Positions 1,089-14,970 of a DNA stretch of 57,239 nt are shown one piece after another; position 1 is the first letter of the stretch; each line of letters opens with the position of its first letter. Both the position numbers and the translations under genes were made by a program. This stretch comes from Candidatus Magasanikiibacteriota bacterium (GTDB lineage: Bacteria > Patescibacteriota > Patescibacteriia > Magasanikbacterales > UBA922): NCBI GenBank assembly GCA_003510435.1, contig DOMK01000006.1, positions 1 through 57,239 on the forward strand, in the 5' to 3' direction. The notes under the pieces are model-generated. The model was not told the DNA's origin. It searched no databases and saw only the letters and a program-made list of their open reading frames with translations.

Positions 1089-1104
1089 ACGACAATTCAA
1101 CAAC

Positions 1105-1188
1105 TTCTGTTTAACTCTGTTAGTTCTGTTTATTCTGTTGTAAAATTTAACAACAGAAATAACGGAATTGAACAGAAAAAACAGAATT
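1105..1188. repeat. TCTGTT/AACAGA palindromic element in the proA-proB intergenic region
   Basis: …ttctgtttattctgttgtaaaatttaacaacagaaataacggaattgaacagaa…; 45-bp core nearly identical to 10383-10427. Confidence 0.65.
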
Positions 1189-1215
1189 TACAATATTATA
1201 TTTTATCTTTTCATA

Positions 1216-2454
1216 CTATTTACGTATTTGCCCAGACCCCATCACCACATACTTAGTCACAGTCAAATCTTTTATTCCCATTGGTCCACGCATATGAATG
1301 GATGAAGTACTAATACCAAGCTCTGCACCCAAACCAAATTCTCCCCCATCAACCAAACGGTTGGATGCATTATGTAAGACCGAGGCACTATTGACTGAAC
1401 GCAAAAATTCATTCGCTTTGTCTTTATTTTTGGTAATAATAGAATCAGTCAGGTGTGAACTATGAATTTCTATATGTTGTAAAGCTTCAGTAAAAGAACC
1501 AACAATTTTGATCGCGATAATTAAATCTAAATATTCTTCATCCCAGTCTTCTTCGGTTGCCAAAATACAATTTTCATTATAACGACAAACCATCGCATCC
1601 CCTCTTACTTCTACATTCTTAGCAAATAATTCTTTTAACAAATCTGGTAAGATTTTATCAGCCATATCTTTATGAATTAAAACTTTTTCAATTGTATTAC
1701 AAGTGGAAGGATTAGACGTCTTGGCATTGATAACAAGTTCAATGGCCATTTTTTTATCAGCTTCAGAATCAATGTACATATGACAAAGTCCGCGTTCATG
1801 AGCAATCACGGGCACACGTGCGTTATCTTTTATACTGTTGATTAATTTGGCTCGTCCGCGAGGTACAACCAAATCAACATACTTATCTTGTTTTACTACT
1901 TCAGCCAGAGCTTCATAACTTCTGTCTTCCAATTGTTGTACACAATTTTTGTCCATACCAGAAGTTTCCAAGGCTTGTTGAATAAATTTTAGTAAAACTG
2001 TGTTAGAATTATTTGCTTCTTTGCCACCACGCACGATTAGAGCATTACCAGATTTTACACACAGTCCAGCCGCGTCTATAATAACATTTGGTCGAGATTC
2101 ATACACAAACACAATCACACCAATTGGTACGTGCATTTTGGCAACTTTCATACCATTTGGTCGTTTCTTTTTTTCTTCTATTATTCCAATTGGATCTTCA
2201 TATCCAGCAATTTCTTTTAAACCTTTGGCCATGCCTTTTAAAATTTCTGATGTTAGAGTCAGGCGCTTTTCCATGGCTTTGGTTAAACCTTCTGCTAATA
2301 ATAAATCTTTTTGATTCTCTGATAAAATTTCTTCTTCATTGACCAATAACAAATCAGCCAAAGTCTTTAAAAATTGATTTTTTTGTTTAGTCTCTACTAC
2401 CCGTAATTGATTCGAGGCTTTTTTTGCAAATTGTAATTGTTCAATGGTTGTCAT
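1216..2454 (-). CDS. proA: Gamma-glutamyl phosphate reductase
   Basis: Full-length ~412 aa match to the ProA aldehyde-dehydrogenase-fold pattern (…VIAHERGLCHMYID…, C-terminal …ASNRLVDGGEFGLGAELGISTSSIHMRGPMG…). The ORF-track start at 2460 is TTG; the first ATG is 2454. Confidence 0.85.
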   Translation of the reverse strand: MTTIEQLQFAKKASNQLRVVETKQKNQFLKTLADLLLVNEEEILSENQKDLLLAEGLTKAMEKRLTLTSEILKGMAKGLKEIAGYEDPIGIIEEKKKRPNGMKVAKMHVPIGVIVFVYESRPNVIIDAAGLCVKSGNALIVRGGKEANNSNTVLLKFIQQALETSGMDKNCVQQLEDRSYEALAEVVKQDKYVDLVVPRGRAKLINSIKDNARVPVIAHERGLCHMYIDSEADKKMAIELVINAKTSNPSTCNTIEKVLIHKDMADKILPDLLKELFAKNVEVRGDAMVCRYNENCILATEEDWDEEYLDLIIAIKIVGSFTEALQHIEIHSSHLTDSIITKNKDKANEFLRSVNSASVLHNASNRLVDGGEFGLGAELGISTSSIHMRGPMGIKDLTVTKYVVMGSGQIRK

Positions 2455-2466
2455 AAACAAATATAT

Positions 2467-2600
2467 TTCGATCCGCCCAGGGCGGAGAGAAATCCCTTTT
2501 TAAAACATTGATCAGTGCCTTATATCAGTTCCTATTTTAATACATTTTTGAACTCTTGAAAAGGGATTCCTCACCCCGACCTTGTCGGGGATTCGGAATT
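2467..2600. repeat. Family-A GC-rich palindromic element, complete copy (~135 bp)
   Basis: Left arm cgatCCGCCCagGGCGGagagaaatccctttt (2467-2500). Right arm aaaagggattcctcaCCCCGACcttGTCGGGGattcggaatt (2561-2600). Arms are mutual inverted repeats, each with its own hairpin. Confidence 0.8.
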
Positions 2601-2777
2601 GATTAAAAAAATAAAGCGACACCTTTTTAGATGCCGCCATTTTTGATACTTTAAGCAAGTACTACTTTAGGCAGCACTGCATGGAGGGAAAATTGTATTA
2701 ATATTATTCATACAAATATATACTACCAAACAGACAGAGAAAAGTCAAATTAAATCACTAGTTATATGTGAACAACA

Positions 2778-2813
2778 AAGGGATCCTTCGACTCGCTTCG
2801 CTCGCTCAGGATT
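2778..2813. repeat. Family-A related element (cctgagcgagcgaagcgagtcgaaggatccctt core)
   Basis: Reverse complement reads aatcctgagcgagcgaagcgagtcgaaggatcccttt. Shares its core with the copies at 3676-3768 and 34004-34060. Confidence 0.6.
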
Positions 2814-2817
2814 AAAA

Positions 2818-3666
2818 TTAAATACCCTTAAATACTGGTACACCATTATTTGGATTAGTTGGCACGTAAATTGTGCCTTGACGATCTTTCAGACTATTGA
2901 TATATAAATATTGTAAATATCTTTCAGTCAAACTCTGATTAATAAGTTGCTGGGAATCACGTTGACCAGTCGCTTCAATCACTTTTCTCTCTGCTTCTTT
3001 TTTCTCAGTCTGCAATAAGAAATCATAACGTTGTGATTCTTGTTCTGATTGGAGTTTTAATTGGATACTTTGGGCTAAGTCAGCGGGCAACTGGACATGG
3101 CGAAGTAGTGCATCTTCGATTTCAATACCCCGGGGTAATAACTGAGCTTGTAAATCAGCAAAAATCTTTTGCGCGGCTTCTTGGCGTTTTTCCGAATAAA
3201 TATCTTTGGCCTCATACTGAGCAATCACTTCTCTAATCACACTTCTGATTTGCGGACGAATGACAATCTCATCATAAGTCAGACCAATATCCCGATAGAC
3301 ATCAGACGCTTTTTCTTGGACCAAGTGATAAAGTACAGTAATATCCAAGTCAACGCTTAGACCTTCTTTGGTTAGAGCTGTAATCGCATCGGCTGAAGCT
3401 TTCTTCCCCTCACCTTGAGCGACACTCATAGTATATTCCTGTGTCCGGACATTCATCTTGGTCACTTTTACCAAAGGATTTTTTAGATGAAAACCAGAGG
3501 CAAATTCTTCATCACGCACTTTGCCAAAAAAAGTTTGTACGCCGGTTTCACCTGCGCCAATCACTACCCAAAACGAACTGGCAAAACTCAAAATTAAAAG
3601 AACTACCACGGCTGATACAATCCACCAGCCAAACTTTCTCCTTTTCATAGGATTAATTGTTTCCAT
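2818..3666 (-). CDS. SPFH/band-7 domain membrane protein (HflC/HflK-like)
   Basis: N-terminal TM segment (KFGWWIVSAVVVLLILSF) followed by an SPFH-like body. The ORF-track N-terminal extension (to 3942) is in-frame read-through of a repeat element. The real start is probably ATG 3666 (METINP...) or 3648. Confidence 0.65.
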   Translation of the reverse strand: METINPMKRRKFGWWIVSAVVVLLILSFASSFWVVIGAGETGVQTFFGKVRDEEFASGFHLKNPLVKVTKMNVRTQEYTMSVAQGEGKKASADAITALTKEGLSVDLDITVLYHLVQEKASDVYRDIGLTYDEIVIRPQIRSVIREVIAQYEAKDIYSEKRQEAAQKIFADLQAQLLPRGIEIEDALLRHVQLPADLAQSIQLKLQSEQESQRYDFLLQTEKKEAERKVIEATGQRDSQQLINQSLTERYLQYLYINSLKDRQGTIYVPTNPNNGVPVFKGI

Positions 3667-3675
3667 AGTTTTTTT

Positions 3676-3768
3676 GTCATTCCGAAAGAGCGAAGCGAAT
3701 GAGGTCGAAGATCCTCCGAGGAGGGAATCCCTTTCCTCTGCCTCAGACGTTCTCGCTGTCACGGAAGA
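3676..3768. repeat. Family-A variant element upstream of the SPFH gene
   Basis: gtcattccgaaagagcgaagcgaatgaggtcgaagatcctccgaggagggaatccctttcctc…; shares gtcatyc…gagcgaagcga…gtcgaaggatcc and gagggaatcccttt motifs with other copies. Confidence 0.65.
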
Positions 3769-3954
3769 ATTAAGATTAAATAATTTATTAATAAAATTTT
3801 GTAAATTAAAATCTATTCCATTCTTTTTTAACTGCCAGTACAACAAAGCCAGACCAACTAAAATTAAAAAACCAGTTCTACTTAACAAACCAAGTAAGAG
3901 AACAACTGCTGGAAAAATGTAATCTTTGTATTTTTCTTGCATAATATTTTGTAA

Positions 3955-4041
3955 ATAGAACTCAAATTACCAGAATGACAAAAATTAACCAAAATAAATA
4001 TTTACGAAAATTTGGGGTGATTTGGGAAATTTGAGTTCTAT
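3955..4041. repeat. ~85-bp long palindrome (ATAGAACTCAAATTACC…GGTRATTTGGGAAATTTGAGTTCTAT) abutting the murA stop
   Basis: Arms atagaactcaaattacc… and …gggaaatttgagttctat are reverse complements. Second copy at 16331-16414. Confidence 0.7.
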
Positions 4042-5342
4042 CAATCAATCTTATTAATCTTTGCGCCAACTTTTTGTAGACGTTCTGCCAGATTTTCATA
4101 ACCGCGTTCAATCGTATACGAATTACGCAAGACTGATCGTCCTTTGGCGGCCAACATAGTTATAAAAACTGTCATTGCTGGACGAATGGCTGAAGGGGAC
4201 ATTAATTCATTAGCATAAAATTTTGTCGGGCCTTCTACAAATACCCTATGGGGATCAAGTAGAGTAATCTTAGCTCCTAACTTTTGCAGTTCCAAATAAT
4301 AAACAGCACGATTTTCATAAACCCAATCATGAACTAAAGTCCTGCCTTTGGCACAAGCCAAAATTGGTACAAAAAATGGCAGATTATCAATATTTAAACC
4401 TGGAAATGGACGTCCATAAATTTTATCTGGTAATGCTATTAACTTTGAAGGAATAAATTTTACATCCACCAAATCAAATTTACCATTAGCTGATTTGCGC
4501 TTTTTTGATAATTCAAATTTTTGTCCCATCACACTTAATTTTTCTAATTCTAATTCCAAAAATTCTAAAGGACAATTTTTAACTTTCAAACTAGATTTAG
4601 TAACAATTGCTAGAGCAAAAAAAGTCATAGCTTCAATCGGATCTGGCATAATATTATAACTTTTTACAGATTTCAAAGATTTCACACCTGTAATTTCCAA
4701 AGTAGTAGAACCAATACCCTTAATTTTAGCACCAGCCTTAACCAAAAAATAACACAGATCTTGTACCATGTAATTTGATGAAGCAAATTTTAGAATACTT
4801 TTACCAGGTGACAAAACTGCGGCCATTATAGCATTTTCGGTCGGTGTGTCACCTGACTCATACATGACGATCTGTGATGATTTCAACGGTGAATTATTTA
4901 CTTGATAATATTTAAACTTTGACTCAACTTTCACACCAAATTTTTCCAATGCAAACAAATGAGGTTTTATAGTCCTTTCACCAAGACGACAACCACCAGA
5001 CTTATAAATCTTATATTCTTTGACTCTACCAGCTAAAGCACCGAGCAATAATAATGAGGAACGAGTTATTTCAGTAGCATGTTTATTAATATCAGCCATT
5101 TTTAATTCCTTTGAACTATTTAATAAAAGTGTGTGTTCATTTATCCAGCGTAATTCTACACCAATACTTTTCAATATTTCTAAAATTCTAAATACTTCTT
5201 CAATTCTAGGGAGATCTTTCAATATTACTTCTCCCTTAACCATCAAGGAAGCACATAATATAGACACAGCAGAATTTTTTGCTGTATTGACAGATAATTC
5301 ACCGCTTAATTTTTTTCCACCCTGAATAATAAATTTAGCCAT
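4041..5342 (-). CDS. murA: UDP-N-acetylglucosamine 1-carboxyvinyltransferase
   Basis: MAKFIIQGGKKLSGEL... N-terminus and a MurA-like body throughout; catalytic-loop Cys context (…KSGGCRLGERTIKPH…). Start trimmed to ATG 5342 (track start 5417 lies upstream). Confidence 0.9.
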   Translation of the reverse strand: MAKFIIQGGKKLSGELSVNTAKNSAVSILCASLMVKGEVILKDLPRIEEVFRILEILKSIGVELRWINEHTLLLNSSKELKMADINKHATEITRSSLLLLGALAGRVKEYKIYKSGGCRLGERTIKPHLFALEKFGVKVESKFKYYQVNNSPLKSSQIVMYESGDTPTENAIMAAVLSPGKSILKFASSNYMVQDLCYFLVKAGAKIKGIGSTTLEITGVKSLKSVKSYNIMPDPIEAMTFFALAIVTKSSLKVKNCPLEFLELELEKLSVMGQKFELSKKRKSANGKFDLVDVKFIPSKLIALPDKIYGRPFPGLNIDNLPFFVPILACAKGRTLVHDWVYENRAVYYLELQKLGAKITLLDPHRVFVEGPTKFYANELMSPSAIRPAMTVFITMLAAKGRSVLRNSYTIERGYENLAERLQKVGAKINKID

Positions 5343-5436
5343 ATAAACATTGATTTTATTAGTTTTATATTGTATATTGTAGCTTAGATAGGATAAATAA
5401 TCAAATTCTTGGCTCAAACTATGTAAGCTATATATT

Positions 5437-5482
5437 CCCCGCCTGCAATCCCGATTTTATCGGGACTTGCATTGCGGGCAGG
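5437..5482. repeat. Nested GC hairpin element between divergent murA and the PEGA-protein gene
   Basis: ccgCCTGCAATCCCGAttttATCGGGacttgcATTGCgGGCAGG. Confidence 0.5.
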
Positions 5483-5510
5483 CTTAATCCTTACTCCTTA
5501 TTCCTTTATA

Positions 5511-6830
5511 ATGACTTACCCCCAAACCAAAATCACCCGTAATATTAGACTCACTATAATGATTTCTTTAATAATCACCTTTTTTATTATTTCTCCAATA
5601 ATCATTATGTATACCGCTGGGTATCGCTATGATTTTAGTAAACATGAAATAAAGCAGACAGGGGTTTTGAGTATTGATGCTTTGCCAAAAGATTTAACTG
5701 TTTATCTTAATAACGTAAAAATAGATAAAAAAATTCCCGTTTGGCTACCCAATCGCGCGCCAGGCAACTATGAAGTTAAACTAACAAAAGATGGTTACCA
5801 AGACTGGGTAAAAAATATTGACATTGCCAGTAAAAAAACGAGCTATATCAAAGAAATTACTTTATTCAAAAAAAGTTTACCCACACCAATCCTGGCAGAT
5901 TTACAAAAAACGATTGCTAATTTTTATTCTTCTTTTGATGGCCAATATATTATTCTTACAACCAAAGAAAATAATATATTTGAAATTTATTTGTACGAAA
6001 CAAACACCGAAACTTTATCTTCACTTTCTAGAATAAAAACAGAAACTGAACCAATTGTTAGTTGGTCGCCTTTTAATAATTATTTTTTAATTCAAACCAC
6101 TGAAAAACAAAAAGATATCATTCAAATTTTTGACGCCACTAATCAAAATATTACAAAAACTTACACATACGATAAATCTGTAATATACCAATGGACAAAG
6201 AACACTTCTGTCCCGTCAATTTATTTGCAAAATAATGGACAGATAATTCTGGCAACCACTGACAGTGAAAAATTACTAACAAATATTGATAGTAGCATTC
6301 AAGCCTGGTATGTGCAAGATGAAAATAATGTCTGGCTATACAAGAATAACACTCTTAAAAATGGCCTATCTGAATACCATCTAGAAAGCACAATAAAAAA
6401 TATTATTGATATTAATAATAACCGACTAATTTACAAAACTGATACTGATATAAAAGTAATAAAATTTTTTGATAACAAAATTCAAGAAATTAATTCTATT
6501 CCTACCCAACAAATCATTTATAATTCACAAACCGGAGAATGGATTACTTGGTCATGGTGGGAATTATGGACAATATATAATAATGGTGATACTAAGCTAC
6601 TCAATCGCACTGGAGAAAAAATGGTAATAATCAATCCCCTAGATCAGTATGGACTATTGTTAATTGCAAATGAAAATAAAATTACTGGCTTTAATCCTGG
6701 CTATTATCTTAGTCATGAATTATTTAATAATGGACAAATTTTAAAAACTGCGGTTGATATCAATACTAGAAAAATTTATTTCTGGGGCAAAGTGGCGGAT
6801 AAGACTGGGGTGTTTGAATTGGAATACTAA
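5511..6830 (+). CDS. Hypothetical membrane-anchored protein with a PEGA-like domain
   Basis: N-terminal TM helix; a PEGA-like segment (LTVYLNNVKIDKKIPVWLPNRAPGNYEVKLTKDGYQDW); long beta-rich C-terminal region. The track start at 5472 is TTG inside a hairpin; the first ATG is 5511. Confidence 0.4.
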   Translation: MTYPQTKITRNIRLTIMISLIITFFIISPIIIMYTAGYRYDFSKHEIKQTGVLSIDALPKDLTVYLNNVKIDKKIPVWLPNRAPGNYEVKLTKDGYQDWVKNIDIASKKTSYIKEITLFKKSLPTPILADLQKTIANFYSSFDGQYIILTTKENNIFEIYLYETNTETLSSLSRIKTETEPIVSWSPFNNYFLIQTTEKQKDIIQIFDATNQNITKTYTYDKSVIYQWTKNTSVPSIYLQNNGQIILATTDSEKLLTNIDSSIQAWYVQDENNVWLYKNNTLKNGLSEYHLESTIKNIIDINNNRLIYKTDTDIKVIKFFDNKIQEINSIPTQQIIYNSQTGEWITWSWWELWTIYNNGDTKLLNRTGEKMVIINPLDQYGLLLIANENKITGFNPGYYLSHELFNNGQILKTAVDINTRKIYFWGKVADKTGVFELEY

Positions 6831-6871
6831 AACACTCAATCACCTAAGCACTTTAGCACCTGAGCACCAAA

Positions 6872-6897
6872 ACACCTAAACAAAGGGTGTTTTTTTA
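6872..6897 (+). terminator. Rho-independent terminator (ACACC-loop-GGTGT + T-run)
   Basis: aaaACACCtaaacaaagGGTGTttttttt after gene 5511..6830. Confidence 0.5.
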
Positions 6898-6926
6898 TTA
6901 GTGTAAATTAGTGTGTAAGATTAGTG
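6897..6926 (+). promoter_or_regulatory. ATTAGTG x3 direct-repeat array abutting the TTGACA -35 of the GC-island gene
   Basis: attagtg (6897-6903), attagtg (6907-6913), attagtg (6920-6926); spacing 10 and 13 nt. TTGACA at 6931-6936. Confidence 0.6.
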
Positions 6927-6993
6927 TTCATTGACAAAATAATATTTTTTTGCTAATGTAATTTTGTAACCATCATAACGCCCTGGAGGGCAC

Positions 6994-7413
6994 ATGCTCG
7001 ACGTGAACGAATTCCTGTCGTGGTTCGAGGCGGGTCGCTTCAACAGCGTGCTCGCGTTCAAGGACGCGGGCATCGTGGGTAAGAGGGTTGAACAGGTGGC
7101 CCAGGCCATCAAAGCCATCCATGACGTCAACGGGACAACGTTCATGGAAATCATCAGCAACCTCGCTAGTCGGTTCTACGACATGGACGAAAGTGTCCCC
7201 GCCGACTCCGGCCTCGTCGGCGAAGGTGCCGTGGCCATAGCCGCGGCGTTCTCTACACTGTTCAACATGACAGACTTCCCCACCCTGGGAAAGCTCACTG
7301 GCATGCTCTGCGTGTTCGAGGAGGTACTCGAGCACGACTTCAAGCCGAGCGAACCCGGCTACTTGGCCGTAAAGACGGCCGTCGATCATCTGCGTGGACT
7401 TCTCTCCGCCTAG
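6994..7413 (+). CDS. Hypothetical acidic protein (139 aa) encoded in a ~62% GC island
   Basis: ATG preceded by SD ctGGAGGg (6983-6990). TTGACA (6931-6936)-N17-TAATGT (6954-6959) promoter-like signal upstream. Hairpin terminator downstream. Coding strand chosen over the overlapping antisense ORF 6973..7494 because of the RBS/promoter and protein-like composition. Confidence 0.5.
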   Translation: MLDVNEFLSWFEAGRFNSVLAFKDAGIVGKRVEQVAQAIKAIHDVNGTTFMEIISNLASRFYDMDESVPADSGLVGEGAVAIAAAFSTLFNMTDFPTLGKLTGMLCVFEEVLEHDFKPSEPGYLAVKTAVDHLRGLLSA

Positions 7414-7485
7414 CCCTCGCTCCGCTTCAGGAGCAACGTCCCAGGGCGAAGGTGGATTTCGATTCTGTACGTTCTTTTCTCGACT

Positions 7486-7557
7486 AAAAAACACCCGCGC
7501 CCGACTTAGTTCCGATTCATATCGAGATTAAGTTGGAGGATTTACGGGTGTTTTTTT
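7486..7557. terminator. Long hairpin terminator-like structure after the GC-island gene
   Basis: AAAAAACACCCG…(47-nt structured loop)…CGGGTGTTTTTTT. Confidence 0.5.
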
Positions 7558-7572
7558 ATTTCAATTAATATT

Positions 7573-8028
7573 TTATTTTAGTAAAGCCATTTCCACAGCT
7601 GTCATACCCCATTCATAACCACTGTTTAATTTCCCTGAGGAACGTTCTACTGCCTGTTCTTCATTTAGGCAAGTAAGTATACCAAAAATGACAGGAATGC
7701 CAGTGTCTAAATTTAATCGCATAATTCCCTGGGTAACTGCTTCGGCAATATATTCAAAATGCATAGTTCCACCTTTTATAAGAGAACCTAAACAAACCAC
7801 AGCGTCTACTTTTTTATTATCAATCAATTTTTTGGCTGCCAAAGGAATTTCATAAGCTCCGGGAACACTTAACTCATAAATATTTTTTTCTAAAACTCCA
7901 CACTCAGCCAAAGCTTTCCGGCAATTTTCTACCAAAGGATCAGTAATAAAACTATTCCACCGGCTCCGGGCAATGCCAATTTTTAATTTACTACCGTCAC
8001 TTATTTTAAATTCAATGCCTTTTTTCAT
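7573..8028 (-). CDS. ribH: 6,7-dimethyl-8-ribityllumazine synthase
   Basis: 151 aa, typical lumazine synthase length and motifs (…GAYEIPLAAKKL…VVCLGSLIKGGT…). Confidence 0.9.
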   Translation of the reverse strand: MKKGIEFKISDGSKLKIGIARSRWNSFITDPLVENCRKALAECGVLEKNIYELSVPGAYEIPLAAKKLIDNKKVDAVVCLGSLIKGGTMHFEYIAEAVTQGIMRLNLDTGIPVIFGILTCLNEEQAVERSSGKLNSGYEWGMTAVEMALLK

Positions 8029-8032
8029 ATAA

Positions 8033-8626
8033 TTATATTTTATTTTTTACCAAATTTTCTAAATACTTTAACATCATATCAAATTCGATATTCACTTCGT
8101 CCCCTATTTGCAAAATACCAAGCGTGGTTTCTAACAAAGTATATTGAATAAGTGAAACTGTAAAAATATTTTTATTTGTCCGGGCGATTGTTAAACTCAC
8201 ACCATCAACTGCCACTGAACCCTCAGCAACTAAATATTTTTTATATTCATCATCTACTTCTATACTAACCAATTTATCTTCACCTTCATTTTTAATATCA
8301 ACTACTTTGCCAACCGTATTGACATGACCATAAACAAAATGTCCGCCCAATTCATCACCCACATGTAAAGAACTTTCTAAATTAATTTTACTGCCTGGCT
8401 TTTTATTTCTAAAAATAGTTTTACGTAATGTCTCGGGCATTAATTCAAATACCAAATCATCATTGATTTTTTCCGCCACAGTCAAACACACTCCACTTAT
8501 GCAAACGCTAGAACCAAGTTCAGCTTCATTGTAAATTTTTGGACAGGAAACAAAAAACCGCAAACTGTCATTTTCTTGCTTAATATCCTCAATGATTCCA
8601 ATTGATTTTATTATACCAGTAAACAT
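8033..8626 (-). CDS. ribE: Riboflavin synthase alpha subunit
   Basis: MFTGIIKSIG... N-terminus, two lumazine-binding repeats, 197 aa. Confidence 0.85.
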   Translation of the reverse strand: MFTGIIKSIGIIEDIKQENDSLRFFVSCPKIYNEAELGSSVCISGVCLTVAEKINDDLVFELMPETLRKTIFRNKKPGSKINLESSLHVGDELGGHFVYGHVNTVGKVVDIKNEGEDKLVSIEVDDEYKKYLVAEGSVAVDGVSLTIARTNKNIFTVSLIQYTLLETTLGILQIGDEVNIEFDMMLKYLENLVKNKI

Positions 8627-8630
8627 AGGT

Positions 8631-9737
8631 TTAATTACTTACTCGCCCTCTTATTTTCATATTATCATTTATTAATTTATAGTCAAGGCTAACCAAATTA
8701 AGGCTATCAGAAACCAGATTAATACCTTCTCCCCCAACCACTGTCTTGGCTTCACGTCCGCCAATAATTTTGGGCGCTAAATAAAAAATTATTTCATCTA
8801 TAACATTGCCATTTTTTTTGTGAGCATCTACAAAGGTGCCATGAACTCCGCCTCCACCTTCAACAAATATTTTTTGTATTCCTTGCTTAGAAAAAAAATC
8901 CAACAACTGTTTTATATCAACCTTTTTCTTGCCAAAAGATTTATATTTTATATTTGCTTTGGCAAAAACTTCTTGTCTCATTTTTGTCGCCAAATTAGTA
9001 CAAACCACAAAAATATTTTTATCGCGATAAACTTTGGCTTTCACATTAGTAGAAAGTTCAGCATCTAAAATTATTCGTAATAATTTTTTATTTTTATATT
9101 TGCCATGTGGAGCCAATTCTGGATCGTCCGCCTTTACAGTTCCAGAACCAACCAAGACTGCATCACAGAGACTTCTTTCTATTCTCGCATCTTGCCTCGC
9201 TTTTTCATTAGTAATCCATTTGGAATCACCAGTCTTGGTGGCAATTTTACCATCCAAACTTATGGCGGCTTTCAAAACCACATAGGGCCAGCCTACACTT
9301 GCCCATTTTAAAAATGGCTGATTTATTTTTTTAATTTCCAAAACAAGTCTTTTATCTTTACACATTTCTACTGCCACACCATTTTTACGCAAATAAATTA
9401 TTCCTTTGCCATTTACTTTTACAAAAGGATCCTTCATTCCCACATAAACTTTTTTAATTCCAGATCTGACTATCAAATCTACACATGGTGGAGTCTGTCC
9501 ATAATGGCAACAGGGTTCCAACGTTATATACAACTCACAATTTTTTAGTAAATTTTTATTTTTTATTTTTTTAATAGCCAACACTTCAGCGTGATCTTTT
9601 CCAGTATGTTTATGCCAACCAATAGCAACAATCTTGCCTTGTCTTACCAAAACAGCACCCACAGCTGGATTAGGTGAAGTAAAGCCTAAACCTTTTTTGG
9701 CTTCTTCTAGAGCTAATTGCATGAATTCAATATTCAT
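8631..9737 (-). CDS. ribD: Bifunctional diaminohydroxyphosphoribosylaminopyrimidine deaminase / 5-amino-6-(5-phosphoribosylamino)uracil reductase
   Basis: CMP/dCMP deaminase zinc motif (HAEVLAI…LEPCCHYGQTPPC) followed by a RibD C-terminal reductase domain. Confidence 0.9.
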   Translation of the reverse strand: MNIEFMQLALEEAKKGLGFTSPNPAVGAVLVRQGKIVAIGWHKHTGKDHAEVLAIKKIKNKNLLKNCELYITLEPCCHYGQTPPCVDLIVRSGIKKVYVGMKDPFVKVNGKGIIYLRKNGVAVEMCKDKRLVLEIKKINQPFLKWASVGWPYVVLKAAISLDGKIATKTGDSKWITNEKARQDARIERSLCDAVLVGSGTVKADDPELAPHGKYKNKKLLRIILDAELSTNVKAKVYRDKNIFVVCTNLATKMRQEVFAKANIKYKSFGKKKVDIKQLLDFFSKQGIQKIFVEGGGGVHGTFVDAHKKNGNVIDEIIFYLAPKIIGGREAKTVVGGEGINLVSDSLNLVSLDYKLINDNMKIRGRVSN

Positions 9738-9740
9738 AAA

Positions 9741-10343
9741 TCAAACCTGGCGAAGTAAATGCCCCATTTTATCTTTTTTGGTTTTTAAATATTTTTTATC
9801 TTGGCCATTTTTTGGTTTTATTTCAATTGAAACCCTAGCTTCAATTTCAATCCCGCATTTTTTAAGTTCTTTTATTTTATCTGGATTATTTGTGAGTAAT
9901 TTTATTTTATTTATACCCAAATCATCTAAAATCAAACAAGCAACTTTATAGTCTCTTTTGTCCGAAGCAAAACCTAATTTTACATTAGCCTCTACAGTAT
10001 CCAAACCCTGTTCTTGCAAATGATACGCTTTTATTTTATTACCCAAACCAATTCCTCTACCTTCCTGACGTAGATATATAATGACACCGCCAACTTTGCC
10101 AATTTTTTTCATGGCCAAATCTAGTTGTTGTTTACAATCACATTTTTGTGAATGAAAAACTTCGCTCGTAATACATTCGCTATGCACCCGAACTAACACA
10201 GATTTATTAGTACTAAAATTTTTTCCCGATAATAAAACAACATGCTCACTGCCGTTGTTATCTTTATAAATTATAATATCAAACTGGCCATATTTTGTTG
10301 GTAGTATGCTTTTGGCTATTTTTTTTATCTTGTATTTCTTCAT
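9741..10343 (-). CDS. ribA: GTP cyclohydrolase II
   Basis: …VRVHSECITSEVFHSQKCDCKQQ…YLRQEGRGIGL… GCH-II signature. 200 aa, so no DHBP-synthase domain. Confidence 0.85.
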   Translation of the reverse strand: MKKYKIKKIAKSILPTKYGQFDIIIYKDNNGSEHVVLLSGKNFSTNKSVLVRVHSECITSEVFHSQKCDCKQQLDLAMKKIGKVGGVIIYLRQEGRGIGLGNKIKAYHLQEQGLDTVEANVKLGFASDKRDYKVACLILDDLGINKIKLLTNNPDKIKELKKCGIEIEARVSIEIKPKNGQDKKYLKTKKDKMGHLLRQV

Positions 10344-10364
10344 AATTAATTTGAATTTTATAAA

Positions 10365-10428
10365 TTCTGTTTCATTCCGTTATTTCTGTTTATTCTGTTG
10401 TAAATTAACAACGGAAAGAACAGAATTA
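10365..10428. repeat. Second copy of the TCTGTT/AACAGA element upstream of ribA
   Basis: ttctgtttcattccgttatttctgtttattctgttgtaaattaacaacggaaagaacagaatt. Confidence 0.65.
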
Positions 10429-10481
10429 AACACCTGCCTGCGCAGGCAGGGAGAAAAACAAAAAAAGCTTATCAGAGACAG

Positions 10482-11573
10482 CTAAATCTCAATAATCGTC
10501 TTATCACCAATAATCATTTTATGACCCTCAGCTTCTTGTCCGGGTTTTTTTATCACACTTACACCCTTACCAAGAATACTATCAGTAATTTTTATATCAG
10601 CGTCCACCACACTATTCTCTAGCATAATAGAATCTTTCATCTTACAATTTCTTAATTCCCCACCAGAACCAATAGTCACATTCGGACCAATTTCACAATT
10701 TTCCAAAATACAATTCTCAGCAATCATAACTGGACCAATAATTTTTACCCCAGCTTTTATTTGCGAGCCAATCCCCACATGAACTTTGCCAGAAATATCG
10801 GCCGACTTATCTATACTGCCGTGATTAGGAAATTCACTGGCTTCCATTCTTTCCAAAAGAAGTCTGTTGGCTAATAACAAATCATTGGCTTGGCCAGTAT
10901 CTTTCCACCAACCAGTAACTTCCCTGTATCCAACTTTAAAATTATTTTTTAAAAAATGTGAATGAATTGATGATATTTCATATTCACCCCGCGCACTTTT
11001 CTCAATTTTTTCAAAAGCATTGAAAAAAACTTTTGGACCATAGAGATAAATCCCTGTCACCGCAAAATCATTGGGCGGATTTTGTGGTTTTTCTACCACA
11101 TCAATCAATTTTCCCGCTTCATCAAAATATGGCACACCAAACCGATTTGGATCTGGTACTTTTGACAAGGCCAACATACAGTCAAAATTATTTTTGTTAA
11201 ATTCATCAGTCATCTCCTTGATACTACCCAATATAATATTATCTGATAAATAAAATATAAAAGGATCATCACCAATAAATTTCTTGGCTTCATTTACTAC
11301 ATGGGCAATTCCCTGTGGTCCACCAGTTTGTTCAAAAAAAGTAATCTTGACTCCCCAGTGTCCCCCATCACCCACATATTTTTGCAATTCAGTTTCACCC
11401 GGATTTGTATTAATAAAAATTTCTTCCACACCTGCTTCTACCACTTTTTCTATAGCATGAAAAATCATTGGCTTATTGGCCAAGGGTATCAAGTGTTTAT
11501 TGATAAGTGAAGTGATCGGACGCAAACGAGTTGCATGCCCACCACCTGTTAATATTGCTTTTTTAATTCTCAT
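10482..11573 (-). CDS. Sugar-phosphate nucleotidyltransferase (glucose-1-phosphate thymidylyl/uridylyltransferase-like) with C-terminal left-handed beta-helix
   Basis: N-terminal GGxGTRL motif (LTGGGHATRLRPIT) and a hexapeptide-repeat C-terminus. Sits inside a dTDP-sugar/glycan cluster. Confidence 0.7.
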   Translation of the reverse strand: MRIKKAILTGGGHATRLRPITSLINKHLIPLANKPMIFHAIEKVVEAGVEEIFINTNPGETELQKYVGDGGHWGVKITFFEQTGGPQGIAHVVNEAKKFIGDDPFIFYLSDNIILGSIKEMTDEFNKNNFDCMLALSKVPDPNRFGVPYFDEAGKLIDVVEKPQNPPNDFAVTGIYLYGPKVFFNAFEKIEKSARGEYEISSIHSHFLKNNFKVGYREVTGWWKDTGQANDLLLANRLLLERMEASEFPNHGSIDKSADISGKVHVGIGSQIKAGVKIIGPVMIAENCILENCEIGPNVTIGSGGELRNCKMKDSIMLENSVVDADIKITDSILGKGVSVIKKPGQEAEGHKMIIGDKTIIEI

Positions 11574-11617
11574 ATAACATTGATTCCACTGATTCTAAAA
11601 ATGATTTCACTGATTAC
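11574..11617 (-). repeat. 38-bp AATCAGTGRAATC-N8-AATCAGTGGAATCAATG element, copy 1, ending 4 nt before the nucleotidyltransferase start
   Basis: Minus strand: gtAATCAGTGAAATCatttttagAATCAGTGGAATCAATGttat-ATG. Confidence 0.7.
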
Positions 11618-11618
11618 T

Positions 11619-11999
11619 TTAAAAATTCTTATAATTAGCAAATCTTTTGACTTCTAGACTTGAATTACAAAAATTTATTAATAAACCTACTTCTAATTTA
11701 CTAGCTTTTAAATATGATATTGTTTGAGTTTGAAATAACTTAGGCATTTCTCCTGATACGGCTTTTAATTCTACCACTACTTTACTATTCACAACTAAAT
11801 CCAACTGAAATGTGCCTACCCACATATTTTGATATTTAATATCAAACTGTTTTTCACTTTCTACACCTAAACCTTCATTTTCTAAAGCCACAATCATTGC
11901 TTTGTGATAGATTCTTTCTTGAAAACCTGGACCAATTTCACGATGTATTCTCATGGCTACACCAATTATTTGTCTAGTTAATTCACTTTCTTTATACAT
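11619..11999 (-). CDS. GxxExxY family protein (PD-(D/E)XK nuclease superfamily)
   Basis: 126 aa; G-x-x-E-x-x-Y signature (IGVAMRIHREIGPGFQERIYHKAM). Flanked on both sides by inverted copies of a 38-bp repeat. Confidence 0.75.
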   Translation of the reverse strand: MYKESELTRQIIGVAMRIHREIGPGFQERIYHKAMIVALENEGLGVESEKQFDIKYQNMWVGTFQLDLVVNSKVVVELKAVSGEMPKLFQTQTISYLKASKLEVGLLINFCNSSLEVKRFANYKNF

Positions 12000-12028
12000 A
12001 GATCTGTGAAATAAAATTAAACAACCAC

Positions 12029-12066
12029 AATCAGTGAAATCTCAAATTAAATCAGTGAAATCAATG
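12029..12066 (+). repeat. 38-bp AATCAGTGAAATC element, copy 2, inverted relative to copy 1; the pair brackets GxxExxY gene 1
   Basis: AATCAGTGAAATCtcaaattaAATCAGTGAAATCAATG. A degenerate unit gatctgtgaaat lies at 12001-12012. Confidence 0.7.
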
Positions 12067-12068
12067 TC

Positions 12069-13166
12069 TTACCACCAAATCAAAAACTTAACAATAACAA
12101 AATACACTTTCATCACCGGATTCCCTACATAAATCACCAAAGGATTTTCTACAGACTTTTCTTGAAAATATATTCCGGCCACAGCATTTTTTAATAATTC
12201 ACGATCAGTAATTTTTTTAATTTTAAAAATATTTTTTCTTTTCTTCAACCACAATTGCCAACTACTTAGTTTTAACCAATACTGATAAACTTTTATTCGT
12301 TCTTTCCACCAGCCACCTTTGAAAGCAAATAACCACAAACCGATTTCTAAAACCAAAGCAATTGGCAAGAGTAATAATAAAGTTGGAATGCGGAAAAACA
12401 TTAGCATTACCCCATAACGATTGCGTTCCATCCAATAAAACTTGGTAATACTCCGGCTAAATTGATACTTGTGATAAAAAATTGAATCTTTTACTACAAC
12501 CGACCTAAAACCAGCTACTCGCAAACGAAATGAATACTCCAAATCTTCATGATACAAGAAAAAATCTTGATCCCACAAACCAAATTCTTTTAATAAGTCT
12601 GCTCGCATCATAAGCGCGGCTCCACTCGCATAACCAACATCACTCACGGCTGGCAAATTTAAATTTTGATGTTTTACTCTATAATCACCACAAAAACCAA
12701 AACCTAAATATTGAAAAGCATTACCCGCACTATTTACCAAATCTGTTTCTGGATGCAATAGTATTAGAGACTGTGCCACACCAATAGTCTTGTCTTTTTC
12801 CATTTGTTCTACCAATGGTTCAAGACAATTAGAGGCCATAAAACCATCATTATTGTGAAAAAACACATAATCAAAGCCATTATCTAGCGCCCATTTTATG
12901 CCTTCATTATTTCCCCCAGCAAAACCCAGGTTGTCTTTTTGGGGAAGCAGTGTCACGTGAGGAATAATCAAACCAGACATGGGCATAACATTTTCTTCTA
13001 TATAGCGGACTGAACTGCCATACTCTGGGTGCGGATTATCCACAATCACAAACTCCACTCTATCTCTGGGATAAGTTAATTTTTTCAAAGACGAAACCAC
13101 GTCGTCTATGTATGGTTCACAATGAAAGGAAAGATATATAATAGCAATGCGAGGATAAGAATTCAT
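12069..13166 (-). CDS. Glycosyltransferase family 2
   Basis: GT2 fold motifs (…VIVDNPHPEYG…, DxD-type …FHNNDGF…), C-terminal TM helices. The track start 13205 is TTG; ATG at 13166 used. Confidence 0.7.
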   Translation of the reverse strand: MNSYPRIAIIYLSFHCEPYIDDVVSSLKKLTYPRDRVEFVIVDNPHPEYGSSVRYIEENVMPMSGLIIPHVTLLPQKDNLGFAGGNNEGIKWALDNGFDYVFFHNNDGFMASNCLEPLVEQMEKDKTIGVAQSLILLHPETDLVNSAGNAFQYLGFGFCGDYRVKHQNLNLPAVSDVGYASGAALMMRADLLKEFGLWDQDFFLYHEDLEYSFRLRVAGFRSVVVKDSIFYHKYQFSRSITKFYWMERNRYGVMLMFFRIPTLLLLLPIALVLEIGLWLFAFKGGWWKERIKVYQYWLKLSSWQLWLKKRKNIFKIKKITDRELLKNAVAGIYFQEKSVENPLVIYVGNPVMKVYFVIVKFLIWW

Positions 13167-13214
13167 AATAAAAAAATTTTCAATTTTACAATTTACAATT
13201 TTCAAAATGTTTGA

Positions 13215-13249
13215 TATTAGAAATTAGGTTAATTAGAAATTAGAAATTT
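13215..13249. repeat. TTAGAAATTAGGTKAATTAGAAATTAGAAATT element, copy 1
   Basis: tattagaaattaggttaattagaaattagaaattt; near-identical copy at 50037-50071. Confidence 0.6.
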
Positions 13250-13299
13250 AAAAAACTTTGCACCTAATATAAACCTTAATTATAATTTGAACTAGAATT

Positions 13300-14139
13300 T
13301 CATTTTCTAGCTCTATAGTATTTATGGTTCCCCTGCCACTTCCACAAAAACTGCCACCAACTCTTGGCATGAATTCTGGCCAATCTATTCTTAAACAAAG
13401 CTTTAAACAGTCCTGGCACTTTGGCCGACTCCCGAGCATGCACATGTCTTATAATAATATCATGAACATAATAAACTGGCCAGCCCGCTTCCCACATCCG
13501 CCGACACCAATCACAATCTTCCAAATACATAAAATATCTTTCTTCATCAAACCAACCTACTTCTTCTACCACTTCTTTGCGCACAATCATAGCTGCTCCC
13601 AAGACCCAGTCTACTGGCCTGGTCTCATTATGATCAAAATCTTTCATTTCTAGCTTGTCAGCATGGCGCTTGATCCATTTATATTTTCGATCAAAATTAA
13701 TATGCTTCAGTGGTTTAATTAAAATTGATGGTAAATCAAACCGATAACAAGAATATTGTAGAGTTCCATCCATATTTAACAACTTTGGACCAATACAACC
13801 AATCTTTCTATGATCATCCATGTATTTTATTAATCGTTCAATTGTTTTAGAATTCTCTGGAATAATAGTATCGCGATTGAGAGCAAAATAATATCTCGCT
13901 TCGGTCGCTTTAAAACCCTTATTATTACCTTTACCAAAACCAATATTACCACCACAATCTATATACTTAACTCCAGAAGGTAAAGCTTCCTTAATTCCAT
14001 CTTTGTTTTCCGAATTATCAGCTACAGTAATTTGGACATCATATGGACAATCTTTAATATCAGCCAAAACAGAATCAACGGCACGTAAAATGTCGTCTTT
14101 CATTAGATAATTTAAAAATACTATATTGATATCCTTCAT
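13300..14139 (-). CDS. Glycosyltransferase family 2
   Basis: …QITVADNSENKDG…, LNRDT, ED…motifs of GT2. An ATTAGTG triple repeat abuts the start codon. Confidence 0.75.
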   Translation of the reverse strand: MKDINIVFLNYLMKDDILRAVDSVLADIKDCPYDVQITVADNSENKDGIKEALPSGVKYIDCGGNIGFGKGNNKGFKATEARYYFALNRDTIIPENSKTIERLIKYMDDHRKIGCIGPKLLNMDGTLQYSCYRFDLPSILIKPLKHINFDRKYKWIKRHADKLEMKDFDHNETRPVDWVLGAAMIVRKEVVEEVGWFDEERYFMYLEDCDWCRRMWEAGWPVYYVHDIIIRHVHARESAKVPGLFKALFKNRLARIHAKSWWQFLWKWQGNHKYYRARK

Positions 14140-14143
14140 AAAC

Positions 14144-14173
14144 CACTAATCTTTTACACTAATTCACACTAAT
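14144..14173 (-). promoter_or_regulatory. ATTAGTG x3 direct-repeat array ending 4 nt before the GT2 start codon (14139)
   Basis: cactaat units at 14144-14150, 14157-14163, 14167-14173 (minus-strand ATTAGTG). Confidence 0.6.
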
Positions 14174-14180
14174 AATTAAT

Positions 14181-14654: not shown

Positions 14655-14662
14655 AATGACTT

Positions 14663-14962: not shown

Positions 14963-14970
14963 ACTAATTT

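What the first reader, a model, noticed from the sequence alone, without database searches (positions are those of the whole stretch)
6931..7557. High-GC (~62%) single-gene island with its own sigma70-like promoter, SD and terminator in a 33% GC genome
A 139-aa acidic protein (6994..7413) is encoded in a segment whose GC content is about double that of the flanks. It has TTGACA-N17-TAATGT, a ctGGAGGg RBS and a long structured terminator. Two other islands share the same TTGACA-N17-TA(A/G)TGT layout (35100-35440; 47899-48540). Together they look like recently acquired cargo from a high-GC donor. If this organism is an epibiont of Actinobacteria, host-to-symbiont transfer would be a natural explanation. 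The protein has no family I can recognise. Candidates include immunity, anti-restriction or DNA-mimic functions.
Basis: partly seen in the sequence, partly recalled or inferred. Interest (0 to 1): 0.65.

Follow-up and report, generated by a model that had tools for sequence, protein, structure and literature searches.

The report
GC-rich orphan gene cassette in CPR bacterium
A roughly 580-base GC-rich insert in an AT-rich groundwater Magasanikbacteria chromosome carries one orphan gene for a small acidic helical protein; it is not a recent pickup, because a diverged relative holds the same cassette at the same spot with the same high GC, which nothing tested here explains.

Summary
The GC island is real. 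The ORF at 6994-7413 is 59% GC against 34% for the window (z = 7). Its codon-position GC (0.60/0.38/0.79) shows the + strand 139-aa ORF is the gene. It is 100% identical in seven public assemblies, so it is not a chimera. Public gene calls record the antisense shadow ORF instead.

The window is core chromosome of a groundwater Candidatus Magasanikbacteria (CPR). The island is an insert of about 580 bp (about 6978-7560) between the convergent PEGA-protein gene and ribH. It lies downstream of a resident sigma-70-like promoter and supplies its own Shine-Dalgarno site, GC-rich UTRs and a two-tier bidirectional terminator.

"Recently acquired from a high-GC host" is not supported:
- No donor or homologue turned up in any protein or contig collection searched.
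- The only relative of the protein sits at the same junctions in a second lineage (native dS 0.7-1.8). That copy has 21% protein identity, the same GC profile and a 97%-identical terminator.
- Six other relatives have empty sites.
- Synonymous differences between the two copies are mostly G<->C.

Function is unknown; there is no family or fold match. Only one of the two "sister" islands shares the stated promoter layout.

The parts
6931..6959 (+). Resident sigma-70-like promoter: -35 TTGACA (6931-6936), 17-nt spacer, extended -10 TGcTAATGT (6951-6959). The region is 24% GC.
   Evidence: Read; pattern match. The same geometry occurs in L090 (TTGACA-N17-TACTTT preceded by TGa). The empty site of L096 keeps TTGACA-N18-TATTAT, so the promoter belongs to the recipient. 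The consensus scanner did not call it. Activity is inferred.
6978..6993 (+). Left end of the GC-rich insert and 5' UTR: ACGCCC (6978-6983), conserved in L090, and Shine-Dalgarno GGAGGG (6985-6990) 3 nt before the ATG.
   Evidence: 5' UTR GC is 0.67 against 0.24 for the promoter. The junction was inferred from comparison with the L096 empty site.
6994..7413 (+). Gene for a 139-aa acidic (pI 4.6), predicted all-helical (six helices) cytoplasmic protein with one known relative. GC1/2/3 = 0.60/0.38/0.79.
   Evidence: The only homologue is P0002 (162 aa) at the syntenic site of L090, with 21% identity, colinear alignment and the same six-helix pattern.
6973..7494 (-). Antisense shadow ORF (173 aa). 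Public gene callers annotated this instead of the real gene. It is not a gene.
   Evidence: Its codon positions mirror the sense frame (0.79/0.38/0.60 over the region opposite the sense ORF; 0.76/0.40/0.58 over the whole shadow ORF). No long antisense ORF exists in L090.
7419..7434 (+). Post-stop hairpin GCTCC-N6-GGAGC. The stem is conserved in L090 and the loop differs.
7435..7483 (+). Remaining 3' UTR, 56% GC, containing a second hairpin (7435-7473). It aligns poorly with L090.
7484..7562 (.). Two-tier bidirectional intrinsic terminator. The outer stem is AAAAAACACCCG / CGGGTGTTTTTT (7486-7497 / 7545-7556), flanked by an A-run and a T-run. The inner stem is a 16-bp imperfect hairpin. It is the right end of the insert and lies 10 nt from the ribH stop codon on the other strand.
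   Evidence: (I3). It is about 97% identical to L090 (two differences over the core element; one search gives 96% mean identity over the 84 aligned columns) against about 83% for ribH and about 65% for other intergenic DNA. It is single copy: no further match in the window, in 1.3 Mb of relatives or in IMG/VR.
6885..6899 (+). Left copy of the exact 15-nt direct repeat GGGTGTTTTTTTATT (right copy 7546-7560). It is the 3' half of the PEGA-gene terminator.
   Evidence: D6. Its weight is reduced because AAAAAACACC..GGTGTTTTTT terminators recur in the window (seven half-sites) and in the L099 empty site.

Best explanation
Island 1 is a self-contained accessory transcription unit, best compared with a phage 'moron'. 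It is embedded in the core chromosome of a groundwater Candidatus Magasanikbacteria.

Anatomy:
- A GC-rich segment of about 580 bp (about 6978-7560) was inserted between the convergent PEGA-domain protein gene and ribH.
- It lies just downstream of a sigma-70-type promoter that was already in that spacer.
- The insert supplies a Shine-Dalgarno site, a 139-codon gene, GC-rich UTRs with hairpins, and a two-tier hairpin terminator. By position, that terminator also ends ribH transcription from the other side.

Product: a small, acidic, all-helical, soluble protein of a family with only two known members.

History:
- The cassette is old or repeatedly exchanged within this clade, not a fresh import. 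A second lineage, separated by near-saturated synonymous divergence, has it at the same junctions.
- Its distribution is patchy: two of eight lineages carry it.
- The two coding regions diverged almost beyond recognition while keeping GC-rich codons.

Origin and function:
- The composition, including amino-acid usage, points to an ultimate origin in a GC-rich gene pool that is still unsampled. High-GC Patescibacteria or their mobile elements are as likely as any host.

Shown: the anatomy, the insertion status, the absence of homologues and the persistence of GC. Inferred: promoter activity, the role of the terminator for ribH, the ultimate foreign origin, and the function. My working guess for function is a fast-evolving binding, immunity or anti-defence type protein.
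For: - Context is core chromosome: riboflavin operon, EPSP synthase, DnaB, RecR, L21, UvrABC; no integrase, transposase, RT or phage gene. Taxon comes from the relatives' record titles and a source name.
- Real and coding.
- Insertion: empty sites of 64-110 nt in L096, L097, L098, L099, L101 and L102.
- Resident promoter: kept in L096.
- Second copy at the same junctions, with ACGCCC, the post-stop hairpin and the terminator conserved. The proteins are colinear with the same helix pattern.
- Native dS is 0.74-1.8 between the two lineages.
- GC1/2/3 is 0.60/0.38/0.79 and 0.65/0.38/0.75.
- At 28 identical residues 14 codons differ, 8 of them by third-position G<->C.
- GARP and FYMINK amino-acid fractions lie outside the native range.
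- No homologue elsewhere.
- The same design occurs in other cassettes: islands 2 and 4 here and five islands in L027. One L027 cassette encodes a bona fide CDP-alcohol phosphatidyltransferase. They occupy intergenic slots that are empty in other relatives.
- Published survey: 83% of detected transfers into groundwater Patescibacteria come from other Patescibacteria (PMC12455944).
Against: - No donor or wider family was found, so a foreign origin rests on composition alone.
- If the cassette was inherited vertically, neutral decay toward the genome's GC3 of about 0.25 should have erased much of the signal at dS above 1. It did not, so an unidentified GC-favouring force or repeated re-acquisition is required.
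- The tree nests two empty-site lineages (L096, L097) between the two carriers, with bootstrap 88-92% (67-72% with fewer columns). One origin therefore needs two clean losses.
- Only two sequences exist, so homology of the proteins (21% identity; pairwise E = 7e-4 over 27 residues) and all rate estimates are weak.
- No expression data exist.
- Function is a guess. The structure models are of low confidence (pLDDT 50 and 65) and have no fold match.
Confidence: 0.5

Rival explanations
1. Recent horizontal transfer of a gene from a high-GC donor, for example an actinobacterial host of the epibiont. The composition has not yet decayed toward the recipient's.
For: GC3 of 0.79 against about 0.25, and GC-type amino-acid usage. 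The site is empty in six relatives. Island 4 looks like a protein from a very GC-rich genome (73% GC, Ala/Pro/Val/Glu-rich).
Against: - The same cassette type, at the same junctions and with the same GC profile, is present in a lineage separated by dS 0.74-1.8.
- No homologue exists in any high-GC genome or metagenome protein. The protein collection holds gene calls from assemblies of the same groundwater project.
- The terminator's outer stem is the recipient clade's own recurrent terminator type.
Confidence: 0.1
2. A non-autonomous mobile cassette with conserved ends (5' ACGCCC, post-stop hairpin, 77-nt 3' hairpin element) and a variable GC-rich ORF. It would have been inserted independently into the same target in two lineages by a site-specific or hairpin-directed mechanism supplied in trans. 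Integron cassettes with attC, or IS200/IS605-type 'peel and paste' elements, are the analogies.
For: - The ends are conserved (about 97% for the 3' element) while the interior has diverged to noise.
- The nested empty sites are clean; two gains are more parsimonious than one gain plus two losses.
- Flanking genes show no excess similarity between the two carriers.
- Other cassettes also end in two-tier hairpins.
- Small free-standing nuclease genes lie near some cassettes: PDDEXK_3 at 46922-47299 and DUF559 beside an L027 cassette.
Against: - No second copy of the element in the window, in 1.3 Mb of related DNA or in IMG/VR.
- No integrase, transposase or RT in 57 kb.
- No attC core sites (RYYYAAC / GTTRRRY) in the hairpin (read).
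- The other cassettes share no end sequences.
- Only one ORF family is attached to these ends.
Confidence: 0.15
3. A vertically inherited resident gene whose GC-richness is actively maintained by selection on the transcript (stability, structure or translation rate), with losses in some lineages. The composition would be a functional property rather than a historical trace.
For: - The GC-rich zone coincides with the predicted transcript, from 5' UTR to terminator, in both lineages. The promoter is 24% GC and native intergenic DNA 29%.
- G<->C dominates the synonymous differences.
- The ORF RNA folds better than shuffles: z = -4.1 in the window and -2.2 in L090.
- The junctions are identical in both lineages.
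Against: - Amino-acid usage is also GC-shifted, which RNA-level selection on a fast-evolving protein explains less readily.
- There is no precedent known to me for so large a gene-specific shift.
- It needs two losses on the tree.
- A z-score of -2.2 is weak.
- The observations fit equally well a divergence that took place in GC-rich donors.
Confidence: 0.2
4. Artefact: a chimeric assembly, or a non-coding or antisense feature mistaken for a gene.
For: Public gene callers annotated the opposite strand. GC-rich DNA carries long ORFs in several frames.
Against: The sequence is identical in seven independent assemblies made with three pipelines. Codon periodicity fits only the + frame. The sense ORF, but no long antisense ORF, is kept in L090.
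Confidence: 0.03

Closest known systems
Phage 'morons': autonomous promoter-gene-terminator units inserted between conserved genes, often with deviating GC (concept from lambdoid phage comparative genomics; cited from my own knowledge)
   Same: A single gene lies between two conserved genes. It is absent from close relatives. It has a promoter upstream and a terminator downstream. Its base composition differs from the surroundings. Several unrelated units are scattered over one genome.
   Different: The host is a cellular CPR chromosome, not a phage. The promoter is resident rather than imported. The GC offset is far larger (59-73% against 34%) and persists across lineages with saturated synonymous divergence.
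Integron gene cassettes (promoterless ORF plus 3' attC hairpin, expressed from a resident promoter)
   Same: The imported part lacks a promoter, carries one ORF and ends in a long imperfect hairpin of about 70 nt. It is expressed from a promoter at the insertion site. The 3' element is conserved while the ORF diverges, as with Vibrio VCRs.
   Different: There is no integrase and no array. No RYYYAAC / GTTRRRY core sites are present. The hairpin has an A-run and a T-run and looks like an intrinsic terminator. It is single copy in all data searched.
Horizontally acquired ORFan genes or genomic islets that decay toward the host's base composition (the Lawrence-Ochman amelioration model; cited from my own knowledge)
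   Same: Atypical GC, codon and amino-acid usage; patchy distribution; no homologues.
   Different: The expected decay has not happened across a split with native dS of 0.74-1.8. Synonymous differences between the two copies are mostly G<->C.
Small acidic anti-restriction, DNA-mimic or immunity proteins (Ocr, ArdA, orphan immunity genes)
   Same: Small, acidic, fast-evolving, a stand-alone gene behind a good promoter.
   Different: There is no sequence, profile or fold similarity to any of them. No partner toxin or defence gene is adjacent. The resemblance is generic only.

Membership tests
Integron gene cassette | attC site with R''/R' core sites (RYYYAAC ... GTTRRRY) flanking an imperfect hairpin | tested here: not met
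   The hairpin at 7486-7556 was read on both strands. No RYYYAAC / GTTRRRY pair is present. The stem is flanked by A6 and T7 runs, as in intrinsic terminators.
Integron gene cassette | Integron integrase (IntI) and attI nearby, or an array of cassettes | tested here: not met
   Most ORFs of at least 80 aa were scanned with Pfam, and the public Pfam gene calls cover window about 1-18000. No tyrosine recombinase was found. The cassettes are dispersed singly.
Moron-like autonomous transcription unit | A single gene with a promoter upstream and a terminator downstream, inserted between genes that are adjacent in relatives | tested here: met
   Anatomy. Six relatives have PEGA and ribH 64-110 nt apart. 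Promoter and terminator activity are inferred, not measured.
Moron-like autonomous transcription unit | The carrier is a phage or prophage genome | tested here: not met
   The window is core chromosome with no phage genes. There is no match in phage collections.
Recent horizontal transfer from a high-GC donor | An identifiable homologue in a GC-rich donor lineage | tested here: not met
   The only hit is P0002 in another AT-rich Magasanikbacteria-type contig. P0001 and the designer-PPR hits are repeat artefacts.
Recent horizontal transfer from a high-GC donor | Presence restricted to one shallow lineage | tested here: not met
   The cassette is present in two lineages with native dS 0.74-1.8.
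IS200/IS605-type or MITE-like non-autonomous element | Multiple copies with conserved ends, and a transposase in the genome | tested here: inconclusive
   No second copy in the window, in 1.3 Mb of relatives or in IMG/VR, and no transposase in 57 kb.
Known protein families or defence systems (Pfam, PHROGs, NCBIfam, PADLOC, PDB) | A significant profile or fold match | tested here: not met
   repeat artefacts only; best Foldseek E = 0.72, on a model of pLDDT 65.

The most novel reading that the evidence does not exclude
High GC may be an actively maintained, functional property of a class of accessory transcription units in AT-rich Magasanikbacteria, not a fading trace of import. One possibility is that the transcript must be unusually stable or structured. 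A more radical one is that these genes are codon-tuned for translation in a GC-rich partner cell to which the epibiont delivers nucleic acid. The evidence does not exclude this. The GC-rich zone matches the transcript boundaries in two diverged lineages. Synonymous turnover is mostly G<->C. No donor exists in very large databases.
Probability: 0.12. Interest if true: 0.8.

Novelty: new variant of a known kind. Interest (0 to 1): 0.5.

Why it matters
CPR (Patescibacteria) genomes are small and are thought to be shaped by loss and by gene exchange with neighbours or hosts. Here, small single-gene units with a base composition about 25 to 40 percentage points above the genome sit in otherwise conserved intergenic slots. 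For one of them, the anomaly has survived a lineage split at which neutral sites are saturated.

If that persistence reflects selection, it is a rare case of gene-specific base composition being functional. If it reflects repeated re-loading from a hidden GC-rich pool, it points to an unsampled partner or mobile element of these bacteria and offers a handle for finding it.

There is also a practical point. Standard gene callers mis-annotate these islands, taking the antisense strand in island 1 and the wrong frame in island 4. The true proteins are therefore missing from public protein databases, and homology searches cannot find them.

Tried and rejected
Searches that found nothing:
- Rfam (gathering threshold on the window and seven loci; E-value mode on island 3) and ARAGORN on the window. 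Nothing overlaps any island.
- The 139-aa protein against Pfam, PHROGs, PADLOC and NCBIfam: nothing.
- The same protein against 5.8 billion protein clusters: nothing.
- The same protein against genome, viral and metagenome contigs by tblastn: nothing.
- GenBank phages by blastn and tblastn: nothing.

Hits rejected as artefacts:
- phmmer against 1.84 billion representatives gave one hit, P0001. It is a 1324-aa all-beta cadherin-like repeat protein whose eight weak repeats add up. One repeat scores 38 bits.
- PDB sequence hits to designer PPR proteins have no single stretch above threshold.

Structure prediction:
- AF2 on the single sequence gave pLDDT 50. The two-sequence alignment gave pLDDT 65. 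Foldseek against the PDB gave a best E of 0.72. The afdb50 library was unavailable.

Tests of specific ideas:
- Target-site duplication. The exact 15-nt repeat GGGTGTTTTTTTATT flanks island 1, but it overlaps a terminator motif that recurs in the genome. No comparable flanking repeats exist at the other cassettes.
- Shared sequence among islands or with relatives' islands: none.
- Recombination signal, meaning excess similarity of flanks between the two carriers: none.
- Covariance model of the 77-nt element: no further copies.
- The L022/L023 pair as a second test of GC persistence: the two are too closely related (DnaB dS 0.66) to be informative.
- DGR-type mutagenesis or A-depletion: no template/variable repeat pair and no strand asymmetry.
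- Literature: no description of this phenomenon was found. One survey of HGT in groundwater Patescibacteria gives background only.
Full report
**What the window is.** The 57-kb window is 34.4% GC. It encodes ordinary chromosomal genes:
- the riboflavin operon, EPSP synthase, a Band-7 protein and a PEGA-domain surface protein;
- many glycosyltransferases and sugar-nucleotide enzymes;
- NUDIX and HIT proteins, DnaB, YbaB, RecR, L21, a ClpB-like ATPase, MraZ, RsmH and UvrA/B/C.

No integrase, transposase, reverse transcriptase or phage gene was found. The exact ribH protein occurs on groundwater metagenome contigs (PRJNA292723; JGI 3300009031, a 149-kb contig). One source names it as Candidatus Magasanikbacteria. 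DnaB relatives are Magasanikbacteria and other Patescibacteria MAGs.

- The ORF 6994-7413 is 59.0% GC. Same-length windows elsewhere have mean 33.7%, sd 3.6% and maximum 46.7% (z = 7.1).
- The + frame has GC1/GC2/GC3 = 0.60/0.38/0.79. This is the signature of a gene from a GC-rich background. The 16 native genes of 98-917 codons have GC3 of 0.22-0.34.
- Amino-acid usage is shifted too: Gly+Ala+Arg+Pro (GARP) is 0.25 and Phe+Tyr+Met+Ile+Asn+Lys (FYMINK) is 0.25. Native proteins average 0.20 and 0.34, and both values fall outside the native range.
- The 742-nt region is 100% identical in six assemblies from three pipelines, and a seventh matches until its contig ends. Misassembly is excluded.
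- Those public assemblies annotate the antisense 173-aa ORF (6973-7494). That ORF is a shadow of the sense frame and is not conserved in the related locus. This is why the exact 139-aa protein is absent from the gene-call index.

The regulatory elements are mostly as described:
- Promoter: TTGACA (6931-6936), 17 nt, TAATGT (6954-6959). The -10 hexamer is weak (3 of 6), and the consensus scanner did not call it. It is preceded by TGc, an extended -10.
- Shine-Dalgarno site: GGAGGG at 6985-6990.
- 3' region: 7414-7560 folds at -53 kcal/mol (z = -4.6). It forms two small hairpins and a two-tier terminator with a 12-bp outer stem, AAAAAACACCCG / CGGGTGTTTTTT, around a 16-bp inner hairpin.

The claim about sister islands is only half right. 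The stated promoter pattern occurs only at 6931 and 47899. The 35100-35440 island is a minus-strand gene with TTGACA-N18-TTGAAT. There is also a fourth, non-coding island at 39254-39707.

**It is an insertion behind a resident promoter.** I fetched eight lineages that share the convergent PEGA|ribH gene pair.
- Six have only 64-110 nt between the two stop codons: L096, L097, L098, L099, L101 and L102.
- The empty site of L096 still contains TTGACA-N18-TATTAT. It aligns with the promoter region of the window and of L090.
- The AT-rich promoter (24% GC) therefore belongs to the recipient.
- The imported segment begins at about ACGCCC (6978) and runs through the terminator (about 7560). Its UTRs are 56-67% GC, against 29% for native intergenic DNA.

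**It is not a recent one-off acquisition.** One metagenome lineage carries a cassette at the same place. This is L090/L091, contig FLOH01000590.1, 36% GC, seen in several aquatic samples.
- It has the same -35 box, the same 17-nt spacer, the extended -10 TGaTACTTT, and the same ACGCCC start.
- It encodes a 162-aa ORF with GC1/2/3 = 0.65/0.38/0.75.
- It has the same post-stop hairpin, GCTCC-N6-GGAGC.
- Its terminator differs from the window's at 2 positions over the core element, about 97% identity (one search gives 96% mean identity over the 84 aligned columns).
- The two proteins align colinearly at 21% identity. They share a C-terminal motif, E[HN]DF[KQ]P[SD]E.GY, and the same six-helix pattern in independent AF2 runs.
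- A profile of the pair finds nothing else among 5.8 billion proteins.

Native genes of the two lineages differ by dS 0.74 (ribH) to 1.8, with 54-87% protein identity for four of the five pairs; the EPSP synthase pair aligns at only 36%. At that divergence a neutrally evolving import should have lost much of its GC3 excess. With an equilibrium GC3 near 0.25, my two-state estimate gives roughly 0.5 or less at dS of 1 or more. This is my inference, not a tool result. Both copies remain at 0.75-0.79. At the 28 residues identical in both proteins, 14 codons differ, and 8 of those differ by a third-position G<->C change. The two genes therefore diverged under a regime that favours GC-ending codons. 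That regime acted either in GC-rich donors or in place.

**One origin or two?** A neighbour-joining tree of ribH plus the PEGA protein (539 columns) gives (((L090-lineage, L096) 88%, L097) 92%, window) 92%. L098, L099, L101 and L102 fall outside. The cassette therefore needs either one gain and two clean losses, or two gains at the same nucleotide position.
- For a single origin: the junctions are identical, the gene family is found nowhere else, and the terminator's outer stem is the clade's own recurrent terminator type. That motif has seven half-sites in the window and also appears in the L099 empty site.
- For mobility: the nested empty sites are clean; the terminator is far better conserved (about 97%) than ribH (about 83%) or other intergenic DNA (about 65%); and the flanks show no extra similarity between the two carriers.
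- Against a multi-copy mobile element: the 77-nt element is single copy in the window, in 1.3 Mb of related DNA and in IMG/VR.

That scan is the most decisive missing test.

**A wider pattern.** The conserved backbone DnaB-YbaB-RecR-L21-DUF192-MraY-like-ClpB-like-...-MraZ is shared by many relatives. GC-rich units occupy its intergenic slots sporadically.
- Glycosyltransferase|DnaB slot: the window has island 2, a 59-aa basic protein on the minus strand. L027 has two different GC-rich small genes. L009 and L010 have nothing.
- RecR|L21 slot: the window has island 3. L027 has a different 200-nt GC-rich non-coding piece. L009, L013, L017 and L022 have gaps of about 67-141 nt.
- L027 also has a cassette that splits an operon, next to a DUF559 nuclease gene. 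Another L027 cassette encodes a genuine CDP-alcohol phosphatidyltransferase (Pfam E = 1.5e-13).
- Islands 1 and 2 and one L027 cassette end in two-tier hairpins between A- and U-runs. Island 4 and the other L027 cassettes end in long GC-rich hairpins followed by a simpler terminator. Fold z-scores for these 3' ends range from -4.9 to -8.2, and the four strongest reach -6.3 to -8.2. The native PEGA-gene terminator folds at -10.7 kcal/mol.
- The islands share no sequence with each other. Their GC ranges from 53 to 73%, so they do not come from one donor.

**Function.** The protein is soluble, acidic (pI 4.6) and predicted to be all-helical.
- It has no Pfam, PHROG, NCBIfam or PADLOC match.
- It has no meaningful PDB sequence or fold match.
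- The single phmmer hit (P0001) and the designer-PPR hits are repeat-summation artefacts.
- It evolves far faster than four of the five neighbours compared: dN is about 0.94 against 0.09-0.35 (EPSP synthase 0.69). This estimate rests on a very weak alignment.
- A stand-alone, well-promoted, fast-evolving small acidic protein is compatible with an immunity or anti-defence type binder. That is a guess by analogy, not a result.

**Verdict.** The island is a real single-gene accessory cassette in a native expression frame. The idea that it is foreign-looking cargo holds. The ideas that it arrived recently from a high-GC host, and that three islands share one promoter design, do not hold. The most interesting residue is unexplained: a 25-point GC excess, bounded by the transcript, has persisted (or been renewed) across a deep split, in a gene family seen nowhere else.

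I rate it as a new variant of a known kind (a moron-like or horizontally acquired islet), with moderate interest.

Noticed in passing
window 39254-39707: A fourth GC island (53% GC, z = 5.6) with no codon periodicity. The minus strand folds at -199 kcal/mol (z = -7.9), the plus strand at z = -4.5. It lies immediately 3' of rplU on the same strand. There is no Rfam or tRNA/tmRNA match. It is absent from relatives whose RecR-L21 gap is about 67-141 nt. L027 has an unrelated 200-nt GC-rich non-coding piece in the same slot. It is a candidate large structured RNA of unknown kind.
   Followed up: partly
window 47899-48535: Island 4: TTGACA-N17-TAGTGT, GGAGGG, and a 104-aa ORF (47986-48300; 73% GC, GC3 0.87; acidic, Ala/Pro/Val/Glu-rich with four Cys). 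These are followed by about 200 nt of structured 3' UTR and the terminator AAAAAATCTCGA..TCGGGATTTTTT. Public gene calls record a wrong-frame 156-aa ORF (48072-48542). There is no family or phage match. It is identical in ENA contig k127_289707.
   Followed up: partly
window 35010-35420 (minus strand): Island 2: a 59-aa lysine/arginine-rich protein (35181-35360, pI 10.7) behind TTGACA (35420-35415)-N18-TTGAAT. It ends in a 30-bp two-tier hairpin (-48 kcal/mol, z = -8.2). The promoter block is conserved upstream of DnaB in L027 and L010. It probably served the glycosyltransferase gene before the insertion.
   Followed up: partly
L002 20148-20377 (about 2.1-2.3 kb upstream of the window start on the same contig): Another GC-rich (59%) non-coding stretch. 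On the strand opposite to that displayed for L002 it carries TTGACA-N17-TAGGAT. There is no Rfam match.
   Followed up: no
window 6870-6895, 7486-7556, 33619-33644, 39218-39244: A recurrent bidirectional terminator design, AAAAAACACC-loop-GGTGTTTTTT. There are seven half-sites against 0.65 expected. It is also present in the empty PEGA|ribH site of L099.
   Followed up: partly
window 6833-6882: Four tandem, roughly 8-nt-spaced copies of a CACC/CACT-containing unit lie between the PEGA stop codon and its terminator. Similar ATCACC/AACCAC repeats occupy the same place in L090, L096 and L097.
   Followed up: no
window 11619-11999 and 46922-47299; L027 15469-15924: Small free-standing nuclease-fold genes: PDDEXK_3 twice in the window and DUF559 in L027. 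Two of the three lie within about 0.6 kb of a GC-rich cassette. A link to cassette insertion is possible but was not tested.
   Followed up: no
window 47586-47832: A normal-GC small gene (61 aa, Cys/His-rich, basic) behind a good TTGACA-N17-TAATAT promoter, just upstream of island 4. It has a weak PADLOC hit to 'E1-E2' (E = 2.8e-4).
   Followed up: no
window 24664-27084 (minus) and 27069-29225 (plus): Two divergent large ORFs (806 and 718 aa) with no Pfam match at E <= 1e-5.
   Followed up: no
L027 2560-3400, 8934-9277, 9409-9790, 14960-15440: The closest DnaB relative (41% GC) carries four GC-rich (62-69% peak) protein-coding cassettes within 21 kb, each with a TTGAC(A/C) promoter and its own terminator. 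They encode a CDP-alcohol phosphatidyltransferase, two small basic or zinc-ribbon proteins and a 91-aa membrane protein.
   Followed up: partly
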